A stretch of 64,000 nucleotides of DNA, from NCBI RefSeq assembly GCF_003790525.1, contig NZ_CP033636.1. One strand, written 5' to 3'. Position numbers: made by a program. The stretch's first letter is position 1; every line of letters begins with the position of its first letter. This DNA comes from Escherichia coli. GTDB taxonomy: Bacteria > Pseudomonadota > Gammaproteobacteria > Enterobacterales > Enterobacteriaceae. Below, piece after piece: positions 45,234 to 51,200 of the stretch.

Positions 45234-48200
45234 TAACTGTCAGACCAAGTTTACTCATATATACTTTAGATTGATTTAAAACTTCATTTTTAATTTAAAA
45301 GGATCTAGGTGAAGATCCTTTTTGATAATCTCATGACCAAAATCCCTTAACGTGAGTTTTCGTTCCACTGAGCGTCAGACCCCGTATATCGCTTGCTGAT
45401 TACGTGCAGCTTTCCCTTCAGGCGGGATTCATACAGCGGCCAGCCATCCGTCATCCATATCACCACGTCAAAGGGTGACAGCAGGCTCAGAAGACGCTCC
45501 AGTGTGGCCAGAGTGCGTTCACCGAAAACGTGCGCCACAACTGTCCTCCGTATCCTGTCATACGCGTAAAACAGCCAGCGCTGACGTGATTTAGCACCGA
45601 CGTAGCCCCACTGTTCGTCCATTTCAGCGCAGACAATCACATCACTGCCCGGTTGTATGCGCGAGGTTACCGACTGCGGCCTGAGTTTTTTAAGTGACGT
45701 AAAACCGTGTTGAGGCCAACGCCCATAATGCGGGCAGTTGCCCGGCATCCAACGCCATTCATGGCCATATCAATGATTTTCTGGTGCGTACCGGGTTGAG
45801 AAGCGGTGTAAGTGAACTGCAGTTGCCATGTTTTACGGCAGTGAGAGCAGAGATAGCGCTGGTGTCCGGCAGTGCTTTTGCCGTTACGCACCACCCCGTC
45901 AGTAGCTGAACAGGAGGGACAGCTGATAGAAACAGAAGCCACTGGAGCACCTCAAAAACACCATCATACACTAAATCAGTAAGTTGGCAGCATCACCCGA
46001 TGCAGCTTTCGTCAATCATGACAGTTATGAGTTTTCCGGTTACTTATCCATTTTTGCCAGCGTGTTCCGCAACATCTGTTTTACTGTTTACACAGCACTC
46101 TTCACGTAAGAATTCGATGATAGCTTCCAGTATTTCGTATTGAGAGACACACATGAGCGTTCGACTCTCCCGGTTTTGTGTGACGAGCCCTACTGATACC
46201 AGGGCTGAAATATGATGACTTAACGTTGATGAGGGAATGCCAAGCTGCTTTTGCAATTCACCTACAGGCAAACCTTGTTCTCCAGCTTTTACAAGATGTT
46301 TGAATATGAACAAACGGGTCGGGTGACCCAGCTCTTTTAGTGCTTTAGCTACTTCTTCCAGTTGCATGTGACAACCCTCTGTCTAATGATATTTCGATAA
46401 TACCAGAAATATCTTGACCAGAATTATATTTCGATTATTCTAGAAACGTAGATTTTGTCAAGAGGGTTTAGTATGAATAGTTGGATTTCTATGCTGCAAG
46501 ATGCCGCAGAGATGTTTTTGTTTTTGGCCGTCGAGCTATCTTTGCTGTTTATTGTCATCAGTGCCGGTGTGAGCCTGATAAGGCAAAAGGTCCCGGACCA
46601 TAAAATCCAGCAATTGATAGGGGCGAAAAAAGGAAAAGGCTACCTGCTGGCCTCGTTGTTGGGAGCCGTTACCCCTTTCTGTAGTTGCTCAACAATTCCA
46701 ATGCTACGAGGGTTGTTGTCGGCGAAAGCAGGGTTTGGTCCGACACTCACTTTTTTGTTTGTTTCACCGTTGCTTAATCCCATTATCGTGGGGTTAATGT
46801 GGGTTACCTTTGGCTGGAAAGTAACTTTGTTGTACGCGATCATCGCTGCCGGTGTCTCAGTCCTTGCCAGTATCGTATTGGATTTACTAGGATTTGAACG
46901 TCATATTGTTGATCACAAAAACTCAGCATCAAGTGGTTGCACCACGAAATGCGATGATTCCGAAGCTTCGGTAAAAACGTCGGCGGGTTCCAGTTGTTGC
47001 AGCACTAGCTCGACTCAATTGCCTTTAAAAACGAGTTGCTGTACTTCATCAGCGAACCCCATAATTAACTTAAGGACGGTAAAGAACGAGCAGAACGTAT
47101 CAGCGTGTTGTTCATCAATATCATCTGAACAACCAGCTGTTAGCTGTTGCAGCAGCGAGAATCTGGGCAATGTGAATCTCACAACGAATACCACCTCTGG
47201 CCCAATAAAGTTAGCTATGAAAGATGCCTTACAGCAGTTTAAGGATGTTCTGCCTTATCTTTTGTTAAGTGTATTAATAGGTTCATTTATTTATGGCTTT
47301 ATCCCTTCAGAGTGGATTGCAGCTCATGCCGGAGCAGATAATCCCTTAGCCATACCGCTGAGTGCAGTTGTTGGTATTCCGTTGTATATCCGCGCAGAGG
47401 CAGTGATACCACTTGCATCAGTGCTGATGACTAAAGGAATGGGCCTGGGGGCATTAATGGCCTTGATAATCGGTAGTGCTGGAGCGAGTTTGACAGAAGT
47501 AATACTGCTTAAATCAATGTTCAGAATGCCTATGATAGTCGCTTTTCTGACAGTAATCCTGGGTATGGCCATACTTATGGGGTATCTGACCCAATTGCTT
47601 TTTTAATAATAATAGTAAGGGTCTTCTGGTGGCACTGTTGCAAATAGTCGGTGGTGATAAACTTATCATCCCCTTTTGCTGATGGAGCTGCACATGAACC
47701 CATTCAAAGGCCGGCATTTTCAGCGTGACATCATTCTGTGGGCCGTACGCTGGTACTGCAAATACGGCATCAGTTACCGTGAGCTGCAGGAGATGCTGGC
47801 TGAACGCGGAGTGAATGTCGATCACTCCACGATTTACCGCTGGGTTCAGCGTTATGCGCCTGAAATGGAAAAACGGCTGCGCTGGTACTGGCGTAACCCT
47901 TCCGATCTTTGCCCGTGGCACATGGATGAAACCTACGTGAAGGTCAATGGCCGCTGGGCGTATCTGTACCGGGCCGTCGACAGCCGGGGCCGCACTGTCG
48001 ATTTTTATCTCTCCTCCCGTCGTAACAGCAAAGCTGCATACCGGTTTCTGGGTAAAATCCTCAACAACGTGAAGAAGTGGCAGATCCCACGATTCATCAA
48101 CACGGATAAAGCGCCCGCCTATGGTCGCGCGCTTGCTCTGCTCAAACGCGAAGGCCGGTGCCCGTCTGACGTTGAACACCGACAGATTAAGTACCGGAAC

Positions 48201-51200
48201 AACGTGATTGAATGCGATCATGGCAAACTGAAACGGATAATCAACGCCACGCTGGGATTTAAATCCATGAAGACGGCTTACGCCACCATCAAAGGTATTG
48301 AGGTGATGCGTGCACTACGCAAAGGCCAGGCCTCAGCATTTTATTATGGTGATCCCCTGGGCGAAATGCGCCTGGTAAGCAGAGTTTTTGAAATGTAAGG
48401 CCTTTGAATAAGACAAAAGGCTGCCTCATCGCTAACTTTGCAACAGTGCCCTTCTGGTTTCATGTTGAACAAAGAAGACCCTTTAGCTTCTGTAATCCAT
48501 TTAATCAGTCTGAATGAAATAGATTATAAATTCTGCTCTGCATACCTGCTTAACCAAAGTCTCATGATTCTGATTGTCGGTACAGTGCCTGAATGTGGCA
48601 TATCTGGGAGGTGCTGTACCCTGTTGCATCTGCCGTTTCTTTCTTGACCTGCCGGTAGTAAAGTACCTTTTGATGCCGTTCCTGAGCGACCTGTTTTCCC
48701 TGATATTTACCCAGCGTATGTGCGAGTTCAACTCCCTGCTTTTGGCGCTGGCGGTCAATTTGCTCGACCAGCAAAATATCATTGCGGTGACTGTCCATCA
48801 GTAAGCGACCCAGTTCCGGTCGGTCAAGTTTTGTACCGCTGATATTCTCCCGGTAGTAACTGGCTATTTTATGCCCCCGCTCCTAAACAAACTGCTCCAG
48901 CATCTCTTTTGCCCGATCGGTGAACTGATCTTCCGTCTATGCCCTTAAATAAGTGCTGATGAACATTTTTTCACCGCATTACCGCATTTAGGTTATTGCA
49001 TTTAATCTATCGCATATAGGCTATGTCGTTCATTGTGTGCCGTCACGTTTAGATTATGGTGTCAGGGTATACCCTTATGCGATAACCATTTTTGTTAAAA
49101 ATAACGCATCGAATAATTTATGAGGAAAACTATATGGCAAGGAGGCAGATTCTTTCTCTGTCGGAAAGAGAATCATTACTGGCATTACCGGACGATGAGT
49201 TAACGCTGACCCGAATGGCCTATTTCAGTGAGCATGATCTGGCGCTTATCAGTGCTCACCGTAAACCCGCCAGCCGTTTTGGTTTTGCCGTCCTTCTTTG
49301 CTATCTGAAAAATGTCGGCTTTGCCCCGGATAAAAAAATCTCTCCCTCTGATGCGCTGCTGAAGCATATCGCCAGCAGGCTAAAGCTTACCGGGGATCTC
49401 TGGCCTGCTTACCTTTCCGGCCGGGATACGACCCGGCGTGAGCATTTAACCGAACTGTACCGCTATCTTGGCGTAAAGGCGTTCACCGGCAAAATACAGC
49501 AGGACTGTATTACGCACCTGTTATCGATGGCGACGCGCACCGATAAAGGCATTCTCCTAGCCGAAGAGTTACTTGTCTATCTCCGGCAGAACAACGTGAT
49601 AATCCCCGCGATTGATGTCGTGGAGCGTACCTGTGCTGAAGTCATGGCAGGCGGCGATAAAATCGTATTTCAGACCCTGAATGCCCCGTTAACTCCGGCT
49701 CACAGGGATGCCCTGGATCATTTACTTGAGTCATCAGATAATCAGCCTTCCAGGCTGACATGGCTTCTGCAACCGCCGGGTAAAATCAATGGTAAGAACG
49801 TGCTGCAACATCTTGATCGGCTCAGCAGCATTGAATCGCTGGCATTACCTGAAGGTATAGATCGTACCATTCACCAGAACCGGTTGCTGAAACTGGCGCG
49901 GGAAGGCCGAAAGATGAGTAGCCGGGATTTGACCCGATTTTCAGCTGCCCGGCGTCATGCGATCCTGGTGTGCGTGCTGGAAGAAGCCAGAGCCACACTG
50001 ACAGACGAAGTGATTGAGCTGCATGAGCGAATGCTGAATAGTCTTTTCAGCAAAGCCAAACGAACACAGGCTGAGCGCCTTCAGCAGACCGGAAAGCTGA
50101 TCCAGTCAAAACTGAGGCAGTACATCGATGTCGGTCAGGCGCTGTCTGATGCCCGTGATTCCGGTGGCGATCCCTGGCTCGCAATAGAAAACATACTCCC
50201 ATGGGCTGAATTTGTCGCCAGTCTGGATGAAACACGCCATCTCGCCAGAAAAAATAATTTTGACCCGCTGCATATTATTACCGAGAAATACAGCACATTA
50301 CGGAAATATGCCCCACGCATGTTGTCCGCTTTACAGTTAGTCGCAACCCCGGCAGCGCAACCTCTGGCTGATGCACTGGTTGTGATCAAGGATATGTACC
50401 GGAAGCAGTCACGTAAAGTTCCGGCGGCAGCGCCGCTTGAGTTTGTCCCTGAAAGCTGGCGCAAGGTGGTGATTACACCTGTGGGTATTGACCGGCAGTA
50501 CTATGAGTTTTGTGCACTCAGCGAGCTTAAGGGGGCGTTGCGCTCCGGGGATATCTGGGTTAAAGGCTCGCGCCGCTACAAAAATTTTGATGATTACCTC
50601 ATACCCGAGAAGGACTTTGACAAACTCACACCGGCACTGCCACTGCCCGTATCTGCTGATTATCATGAGTACATTACCAGCCGTATGACCCTGCTTCAGT
50701 CCAGACTTGAAGAGGTCAATGCCATGGCTGCCCTTGGTGAACTGCCCGATGTGGAAATATCCGACAGGGGCGTAAAAGTCTCTCCGCTGGATAACTGCGT
50801 TCCGGCGCAGGTTTCACCGCTGGCAGAGCTGGTTTACAGCATGCTACCGCGACCTAAAATCACGGAAATTCTCGATGAGGTAAACAGCTGGACGACGTTT
50901 ACCCGACATTTTTCGCATATAAAAAATGACATTACCCGTCCCGATACCCGCTTGCTCCTCACCACCATTCTTGCGGATGGCATCAATCTTGGCCTGACCA
51001 AAATGGCAGAAGCCTGCCCCGGGAGCACCAAATCATCACTCGAAGATATTCAGGCATGGTACATCCGTGACGAAACCTATTCAGCCGCTCTTGCAGAGCT
51101 GGTAAATGCGCAGGGGAAAAGACCGTTGGCGGCATTTTGGGGAGACGGAACAACGTCATCATCAGATGGACAAAATTTCAGAACCGGCAGCTCAGGCCGC

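What the first reader, a model, noticed from the sequence alone, without database searches (positions are those of the whole stretch)
47623..48458. Only one of six IS26 copies has a target-site duplication
IS26 copy 6 is flanked by identical CTTCTGGT octamers, indicating simple insertion into intact sequence 17 bp downstream of the ArsP-like gene. The other five copies lack duplications, consistent with cointegrate formation, deletion or homologous recombination shaping the island. It also shows that the ars-like module and the downstream Tn3-family region were contiguous before the insertion.
Basis: seen in the sequence. Interest (0 to 1): 0.35.

Follow-up and report, generated by a model that had tools for sequence, protein, structure and literature searches.

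The report
One IS26 copy with target duplication
One of six IS26 insertion sequences in this multidrug-resistance plasmid region still has the 8-bp duplication left by its original insertion; this is real, but it is routine mobile-element bookkeeping that has already been published for this plasmid lineage.

Summary
The window holds six complete 820-bp IS26 copies. Only copy 6 (47631-48450, + strand) has identical 8-bp flanks, CTTCTGGT, at 47623-47630 and 48451-48458. No flank of the other five copies matches any other flank, directly or as a reverse complement.

Removing copy 6 and one octamer gives a sequence found at 100% identity over 1200 bp in at least 40 listed plasmids; 226 cover at least 80% of it. 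One is an IncHI2 plasmid with the same right-hand backbone. The occupied site is in 36 plasmids, among them the IncHI2A plasmid pNDM33-1. So the ArsR/permease pair and the Tn3-family remnant were contiguous before insertion.

The insertion and its duplication are already published (PMC8920835, IS26 upstream of deltaTnEc1).

Refinements:
- IS26 cannot move alone. A lone flanked copy implies a replicative event followed by recombination between IS26 copies.
- Copy 6 is the G184N variant IS26-v1.
- The target lies in a strong hairpin, which the insertion destroys.
- Comparison with relatives shows extra deletions next to copies 2 and 5.

Ordinary, already known, low interest.

The parts
47623..47630 (.). 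Left copy of the 8-bp target-site duplication, CTTCTGGT.
   Evidence: In the empty-site plasmids this octamer occurs once at this position.
47631..48450 (+). IS26 copy 6, 820 bp, variant IS26-v1. The 14-bp terminal repeats are at 47631-47644 and 48437-48450.
   Evidence: It is identical to copies 1, 2 and 5. It differs from copies 3 and 4 at IS positions 459, 613 and 614.
47694..48398 (+). tnp26, 234 aa, with Asn at residue 184 (G184N).
   Evidence: The translation is. It matches NCBIfam NF033587, IS6 family transposase, at 278 bits against a cut-off of 125. The G184N / IS26-v1 definition comes from PMC9412624.
48451..48458 (.). Right copy of the 8-bp target-site duplication, CTTCTGGT.
47617..47627 (.). 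5' arm of a hairpin (core GGGTCTTCT) that the insertion splits. Its last 5 nt lie inside the duplicated octamer.
   Evidence: In the empty-site sequence the hairpin folds at -20.7 kcal/mol on the + strand (z = -4.1) and -19.1 kcal/mol on the - strand (z = -3.95). After insertion, the two junction sequences give z = -0.8 and -1.0.
48473..48483 (.). 3' arm of the same hairpin (core AGAAGACCC), now 846 bp away from its partner arm.
46473..47606 (+). Permease of Pfam family PF03773 (ArsP_1). This is the 'ArsP-like' gene, and it ends 16 nt before the target.
   Evidence: Pfam E = 6e-53. It falls below the cut-off of every named NCBIfam model. A 95-97% identical arsR-permease pair sits beside arsH in a plasmid region that also holds arsD and arsA/B/C, in E. 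albertii plasmid NZ_CP024287.
46044..46367 (-). ArsR/SmtB-family regulator, divergent from the permease.
45385..45998 (-). IS1 remnant. It is cut at 45384/45385 by the right inverted repeat of Tn2 (45347-45384), which lies downstream of blaTEM-1.
   Evidence: Sequence read; Pfam DDE_Tnp_IS1 match; alignment to the complete IS1 of a ColV plasmid.
48562..48966 (-). Resolvase (tnpR) pseudogene of the Tn3-family remnant, with two in-frame stop codons. It is convergent with the permease.
   Evidence: Translation. Pfam Resolvase E = 5.4e-12 on the conceptual product.
49134..52121 (+). Tn3-family transposase gene, 995 aa.
   Evidence: Pfam matches DDE_Tnp_Tn3 and DUF4158. NCBIfam transpos_Tn3 at 1129 bits.
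52107..52144 (-). 38-bp terminal inverted repeat of the Tn3-family element, GGGGTCAGTTTGGATATCGAAAATTATTGTACGTTAAG on the - strand. No left-hand partner exists in the window.
   Evidence: Shared homology with the ColV and E. albertii plasmids stops exactly at 52144.
14714..15533 (+). IS26 copy 1 (IS26-v1), with no duplication. It lies between IncHI2 backbone on its left and a truncated Tn21-type resolvase gene and sul3-type class 1 integron on its right.
26842..27661 (-). IS26 copy 2 (IS26-v1), with no duplication. It has a truncated mef(B) on one side and is fused to aac(3)-IVa on the other.
38121..38940 (-). IS26 copy 3, canonical form (Gly184), with no duplication.
41721..42540 (-). IS26 copy 4, canonical form (Gly184), with no duplication. 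Together with copy 3 it brackets lnu(F)-aadA22.
42977..43796 (-). IS26 copy 5 (IS26-v1), with no duplication. It truncates the Tn2 resolvase gene upstream of blaTEM-1.

Best explanation
Copy 6 is an IS26-v1 insertion that entered an IncHI2 multidrug-resistance plasmid already carrying blaTEM-1, an IS1 remnant, arsR, the permease and the Tn3-family remnant.

Shown:
- The target was the octamer CTTCTGGT, in the hairpin just past the permease stop codon.
- The site was previously uninterrupted.
- The same insertion is shared by a set of related plasmids.

Inferred:
- IS26 makes only cointegrates. The event was therefore most likely a replicative (copy-in) attack by an IS26-v1 on another molecule or on a translocatable unit. 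That duplicated the IS and the 8-bp target.
- Recombination between the two direct IS26 copies then removed the donor and left one copy flanked by the duplication.
- The other five copies lost or never had matching flanks. The causes would be targeted conservative IS26 reactions, adjacent deletions, or recombination between IS copies.
- Copy 6 now forms the right-hand IS26 boundary of the resistance region. It is in the same orientation as copy 1 and identical to it, so it is a ready substrate for further deletion or excision.
For: - The flanks are identical and the IS is complete.
- The empty site is found at 100% over 1200 bp in at least 40 listed plasmids, and 226 cover at least 80% of it. 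One is IncHI2A pE16-1, which has the same right-hand backbone.
- The occupied site, with both junctions, is in 36 plasmids, and 17 of those listed match at 100.0%. pNDM33-1, typed IncHI2A, has an identical IS and the same duplication.
- IS26 forms only cointegrates and cannot move alone (PMC8477213).
- A worked example exists of recombination between two IS26-v1 copies leaving one copy flanked by the duplication (PMC9019673).
- The same duplication is reported for this IS26, and a derivative has lost one side through IS26-IS26 recombination (PMC8920835).
- Adjacent deletions are seen at copies 2 and 5 when compared with relatives.
Against: Nothing contradicts the insertion itself. The route cannot be read from the sequence. 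No donor molecule or cointegrate intermediate was identified, and an intramolecular route gives the same product (see rivals). I infer a single ancestral event from the identical position, orientation and variant, not from a plasmid phylogeny.
Confidence: 0.85

Rival explanations
1. Intramolecular route. An IS26-v1 already in the plasmid attacked CTTCTGGT on the same molecule in the inverting mode. Copy 5, 3.8 kb away, or copy 2 would be the donor. This produced two inverted IS copies with the intervening segment flipped. Recombination between the inverted copies then flipped the segment back. The new copy was left flanked by a direct 8-bp duplication and in the opposite orientation to its parent.
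For: Copy 6 (+) is identical in sequence to copies 5 and 2, and both are in the opposite orientation. That is exactly what this route predicts. Inverting intramolecular IS26 events do occur in this plasmid family. pE16-1 carries the signature CGCTGCCC / GGGCAGCG on two inverted IS26 copies and has the corresponding segment inverted. PMC9019673 describes the same kind of event.
Against: No intermediate with the blaTEM-1-to-permease segment inverted was seen, although I did not search for one specifically. Copy 1 is also identical and in the same orientation as copy 6, so orientation does not discriminate between routes. Both routes need two steps and give the same final sequence.
Confidence: 0.12
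2. The matching octamers are a coincidence, or the result of recombination between two different IS26 insertions, and not a true target duplication.
For: None beyond the logical possibility. Five of the six copies in the window do have unrelated flanks.
Against: The chance of identity is about 1.5e-5. The flanks rejoin to give a sequence present uninterrupted and 100% identical over 1200 bp in many plasmids, with the octamer present once.
Confidence: 0.01
3. The insertion was selected for a function rather than being neutral. By destroying the hairpin between the convergent permease and resolvase genes, and by pointing tnp26 towards the Tn3-family transposase gene, it would alter expression of the neighbouring genes.
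For: The hairpin is strong in the empty site (-20.7 kcal/mol, z = -4.1) and gone after insertion. tnp26 and the Tn3-family tnpA are on the same strand, 735 bp apart.
Against: The pattern scan found no promoter-like site at the right IS26 junction and did not call the hairpin a terminator; its loop is 17 nt and the T-run is weak. The resolvase gene is a pseudogene and the element lacks its left end, so there is little left to regulate. The empty form is about six times more frequent than the occupied form.
Confidence: 0.05

Closest known systems
The IS26 'upstream of deltaTnEc1' in pNDM33-1-type IncHI2 plasmids (PMC8920835; GenBank NZ_MN915011 / NZ_CP076648)
   Same: Same position, orientation, 8-bp duplication (CTTCTGGT) and IS sequence, with 0 differences. 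The surrounding region is 99.99-100% identical.
   Different: The window lacks the blaNDM-5 composite transposon Tn7051; the ACTTT target at 37390-37394 is unoccupied. It also has 53-bp and 65-bp shorter junctions next to IS26 copies 2 and 5.
IS26-v1, the IS26 variant encoding Tnp26 G184N with enhanced activity (Pong et al. 2019, as cited in PMC9019673 and PMC9412624)
   Same: Copies 1, 2, 5 and 6 differ from the canonical copies 3 and 4 by three nucleotides. Two of these change codon 184 from Gly to Asn, which matches the published definition.
   Different: Nothing detected. Activity was not tested here.
TnEc1, a Tn3-family element with transposase and resolvase genes and no cargo (described in bioRxiv 10.1101/2022.09.12.507718)
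   Same: The window has a Tn3-family transposase, a divergent resolvase gene and a GGGG...TAAG-type terminal repeat. The literature labels this remnant deltaTnEc1.
   Different: Here the resolvase is a pseudogene and the left repeat is absent from the window. In E. albertii plasmid NZ_CP024287 an identical left repeat lies beyond IS1. There the repeat-bounded 6.4-kb structure encloses IS1, arsR and the permease. I had no TnEc1 reference sequence to compare against.

Membership tests
IS26 (IS6/IS26 family insertion sequence) | 820-bp element bounded by perfect 14-bp terminal inverted repeats, GGCACTGTTGCAAA. | tested here: met
   there are six inverted pairs exactly 820 bp apart, and copy 6 lies at 47631-48450.
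IS26 (IS6/IS26 family insertion sequence) | A single transposase gene encoding the 234-aa Tnp26 of the IS6 family. | tested here: met
   One search gives the 234-aa product. One search matches NF033587 at 278 bits against a cut-off of 125. RefSeq names the identical protein 'IS6-like element IS26 family transposase'.
IS26 (IS6/IS26 family insertion sequence) | An 8-bp target-site duplication on untargeted (copy-in) insertion. | tested here: met
   Searches show CTTCTGGT on both sides of copy 6. The octamer is present once in the empty-site plasmids.
IS26 (IS6/IS26 family insertion sequence) | Moves only by cointegrate formation (copy-in or targeted conservative). | not testable with these tools
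   This is a property established experimentally (PMC8477213). It is used here for inference only.
IS26-v1 variant | Three nucleotide differences from IS26, two of which give G184N in Tnp26. | tested here: met
   One search places the differences at IS positions 459, 613 and 614, and residue 184 is Asn versus Gly. The definition is in PMC9412624.
ArsP (organoarsenical efflux permease) | Membership of Pfam PF03773 (ArsP_1). | tested here: met
   E = 6e-53, 180 bits against a cut-off of 32.3.
ArsP (organoarsenical efflux permease) | Genetic linkage to arsenic-resistance genes and an ArsR regulator. | tested here: inconclusive
   A divergent ArsR-family gene lies next to the permease. A 95-97% identical pair sits beside arsH in a plasmid region that also holds arsD and arsA/B/C. 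No other ars gene is linked to it in the window.
ArsP (organoarsenical efflux permease) | Demonstrated organoarsenical transport. | not testable with these tools
   No named NCBIfam model reaches its cut-off. The best is the SO_0444 Cu/Zn efflux family at 116 bits against 300. The substrate is therefore unknown.
Tn3-family transposon (TnEc1) | A Tn3-family DDE transposase. | tested here: met
Tn3-family transposon (TnEc1) | Two terminal inverted repeats of about 38 bp or more. | tested here: not met
   Only the right repeat (52107-52144) is present. The first 19 bases of the repeat have no second match with up to 3 mismatches, and the full 38-mer has none with up to 10 substitutions. The element is a remnant, as the literature label deltaTnEc1 indicates.
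Tn3-family transposon (TnEc1) | A functional resolvase. | tested here: not met
   The resolvase reading frame carries two in-frame stop codons.

The most novel reading that the evidence does not exclude
Copy 6 may not have arrived from outside. It could instead have been produced inside the plasmid, by an inverting replicative attack from the neighbouring IS26-v1 followed by re-inversion. By destroying a bidirectional hairpin between the permease gene and the transposon remnant, it might also change expression of the Tn3-family transposase or the permease. If both held, a 'silent' flanked IS26 would record a two-step internal rearrangement with a regulatory side effect.
Probability: 0.08. Interest if true: 0.2.

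Novelty: already known. Interest (0 to 1): 0.08.

Why it matters
The practical value is small. A flanked IS26 is a fixed landmark. It shows which neighbouring segments were once contiguous, and it serves as a lineage marker for pNDM33-1-type IncHI2 resistance plasmids. It also marks the right-hand IS26 boundary from which further deletions or excisions of the resistance region can start; one such derivative is already published. It adds nothing new about how IS26 works.

Tried and rejected
- **Split duplications.** I looked for them among the other five copies, as direct matches (compound transposon) and reverse-complement matches (inversion). There were none.
- **Left inverted repeat of the Tn3-family element.** I searched the window and found none. 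A hit overlapping an arsR gene in small plasmid NZ_CP095507 turned out to be an unrelated 2.4-kb element with similar repeats and a non-homologous arsR.
- **IS1 in E. albertii NZ_CP024287.** I tested whether it is a simple insertion, which would make arsR-permease straightforward cargo. Its flanks differ (AATCATGCG versus CGATGCAGC), so the structure is a mosaic.
- **Outward promoter or terminator at the IS26 junctions.** The pattern scan found nothing convincing.
- **Source record of the window.** I tried to identify it through the rare IS26 / aac(3)-IVa junction. It occurs in two K. pneumoniae plasmids with a different backbone and in none of 5,426 complete E. coli genomes.
- **Copy-5 junction.** The 60-bp search was uninformative because two-piece matches outranked any single-piece match.
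Full report
**Observation**

The 14-bp IS26 terminal repeat occurs 12 times in the window, against 0.07 expected by chance. These form six inverted pairs exactly 820 bp apart. The copies lie at 14714-15533 (+), 26842-27661 (-), 38121-38940 (-), 41721-42540 (-), 42977-43796 (-) and 47631-48450 (+).

I extracted the 8-bp flanks of each copy. Only copy 6 has identical octamers: CTTCTGGT at 47623-47630 and 48451-48458. None of the other ten flanks matches another flank, either directly or as a reverse complement. The window therefore holds no hidden compound-transposon or inversion signature. A chance match of two octamers has probability of about 1.5e-5.

**Empty and occupied sites**

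I joined the 600 bp left of the IS (including one octamer) to the 600 bp right of the second octamer. I searched this against 72,556 plasmids.
- The 40 listed records match at 100% over all 1200 bp, and 226 records cover at least 80%. They include ColV/IncF plasmids of E. coli, Salmonella and Shigella.
- IncHI2A plasmid pE16-1 also has the empty site. It matches window 48451-64000 at 99.98% and carries blaTEM-1, the IS1 remnant, arsR, the permease and the Tn3-family transposase with no IS26 between them.
- The occupied site, with both junctions, is in 36 plasmids. Most of the 30 listed are about 200-370 kb, from E. coli, Salmonella, Klebsiella and E. fergusonii.
- In pNDM33-1, typed IncHI2A, the IS and its flanks are identical to the window.

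The insertion therefore went into intact, previously contiguous sequence. It is shared by a set of related plasmids.

**What surrounds it**

- Left of the target, from the outside in: blaTEM-1; the right end of Tn2 (45347-45384); a truncated IS1 (45385-45998); an ArsR-family gene (46044-46367, - strand); and a PF03773 'ArsP_1' permease (46473-47606, Pfam E = 6e-53).
- Right of the target: a resolvase pseudogene on the minus strand (48562-48966; two in-frame stops; Pfam Resolvase E = 5e-12). Then come a 995-aa Tn3-family transposase gene (49134-52121) and a typical 38-bp Tn3-family terminal repeat ending at 52144.
- Homology with the ColV and E. albertii plasmids stops exactly at 52144.
- The window contains no left repeat.
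- A second arsR-permease pair, 95-97% identical, lies beside arsH in a region of E. albertii plasmid NZ_CP024287 that also holds arsD and arsA/B/C. Its homology to the window runs from 45999, the base after IS1, to 47607, the base after the permease stop.
- The ars-derived fragment therefore ends 16 bp before the IS26 target.
- In that same plasmid, a left repeat identical to the right one lies 269 bp beyond IS1. A 6.4-kb repeat-bounded mosaic thus encloses IS1, arsR, the permease, the resolvase pseudogene and the transposase. IS1 there has no duplication.

**The target itself**

In the empty site, the target lies in a hairpin, GGGTCTTCT-N17-AGAAGACCC. This sits between the convergent permease and resolvase genes.
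- It folds at -20.7 kcal/mol on the + strand (z = -4.1) and at -19.1 kcal/mol on the - strand (z = -3.95).
- The duplicated octamer covers the last five bases of the 5' arm and three loop bases.
- After insertion, neither junction folds better than shuffled sequence (z = -0.8 and -1.0).
- The simple scans call neither a terminator nor an outward promoter here.

I treat a functional consequence as unproven and unlikely to matter.

**Mechanism**

[quoted passage not shown] It does this by a replicative copy-in route or a targeted conservative route (PMC8477213). A lone copy with an 8-bp duplication is therefore a two-step product.
- First, a copy-in cointegrate forms, which duplicates both the IS and the target.
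- Second, recombination between the two direct IS copies removes the donor.
- PMC9019673 describes exactly this outcome for IS26-v1 in an IncHI2 plasmid.

An alternative gives the same sequence: an intramolecular inverting attack from copy 5 or copy 2, followed by re-inversion through recombination between the inverted copies. Both candidate donors are identical to copy 6 and in the opposite orientation. pE16-1 shows that inverting events happen in this family; two of its inverted IS26 copies carry CGCTGCCC / GGGCAGCG. The two routes cannot be separated from this window. I favour the intermolecular route only as the textbook default.

**The other five copies**

- Copies 1, 2, 5 and 6 are identical and encode Asn184.
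- Copies 3 and 4 differ at three positions and encode Gly184. The first group is therefore IS26-v1 and the second is canonical IS26 (definition in PMC9412624).
- The two canonical copies bracket lnu(F)-aadA22, consistent with import as a separate unit.
- pNDM33-1 and pE16-1 both have 53 bp more next to copy 2 than the window does.
- Next to copy 5, pNDM33-1 has 65 bp more of the Tn2 resolvase gene, while pE16-1 has 260 bp less.
- These are serial IS26-adjacent deletions.

**Comparison with the literature**

PMC8920835 describes pNDM33-1-type IncHI2 plasmids. [quoted passage not shown] The authors attribute this to recombination with another IS26. The insertion, its duplication and its role as a recombination partner are therefore already published.

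**Verdict**

The finding is already known and of low interest.

Noticed in passing
window 27623-28435: aac(3)-IVa is fused in frame to an ATG 39 bp inside the end of IS26 copy 2, giving [17 protein letters not shown].... Relatives pNDM33-1 and pE16-1 have 53 bp more here, including the gene's own GTG start. The exact junction occurs in only 2 of 72,556 plasmids and in no complete E. coli genome. In one of those two plasmids, the RGI resistance-gene prediction for AAC(3)-IVa matches at 100% and starts 39 bp inside IS26. From memory, this recalls the 1984 report of IS140 (an IS26 synonym) driving aac(3)-IV.
   Followed up: partly
window 37390-37394: The 5-bp sequence ACTTT between IS1 and the IS10 remnant is the unoccupied target of Tn7051, the IS3000-bounded blaNDM-5 composite transposon of pNDM33-1. 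The window therefore looks like a pre-NDM-5 relative of that plasmid (PMC8920835).
   Followed up: partly
window 43797 (right junction of IS26 copy 5): Three related plasmids have three different IS26 / Tn2-resolvase junctions. pNDM33-1 has 65 bp more than the window, and pE16-1 has 260 bp less. This points to repeated IS26-adjacent deletions eating into Tn2.
   Followed up: partly
window 38121-42540: The two canonical (Gly184) IS26 copies, in the same orientation, bracket lnu(F)-aadA22. All other copies are IS26-v1. This suggests the segment arrived separately as an IS26-bounded unit.
   Followed up: no
window 42541-42976: A 436-bp fragment lies between IS26 copies 4 and 5. Read by eye from the sequence printed, it appears to encode the N-terminus of a serine recombinase (MIIGYARKST...), cut off by copy 5. 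It is not annotated in related records.
   Followed up: no
window 14714-48450: Copies 1 and 6 are the only + strand copies, and they are identical. They bracket the whole 33.7-kb resistance region as direct repeats. Recombination between them could excise the region as one circular unit. Their outer flanks do not match, so nothing shows it ever moved as a unit.
   Followed up: no
L005 (pE16-1, NZ_CP119727) 6377-7196 and 25817-26636: Two inverted IS26-v1 copies carry the reverse-complementary octamers CGCTGCCC and GGGCAGCG on their left flanks, and the segment between them is inverted relative to the window. This is the signature of an intramolecular inverting IS26 event.
   Followed up: partly
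L008 (E. albertii NZ_CP024287) 17328-23721 and 40451-41962: This record holds a repeat-bounded 6.4-kb mosaic: left repeat, 269 bp, IS1, arsR, permease, resolvase pseudogene, transposase, right repeat. It also holds a second arsR-permease pair beside arsH, in a region that also contains arsD and arsA/B/C. That pair appears to be the source context of the pair in the window.
   Followed up: partly
L007 (NZ_CP095507) 6055-8429: A 2.4-kb element is bounded by repeats nearly identical to the Tn3-family repeat in the window. It carries an unrelated arsR and an FAD-dependent oxidoreductase and has no transposase, so it may be a non-autonomous relative.
   Followed up: no
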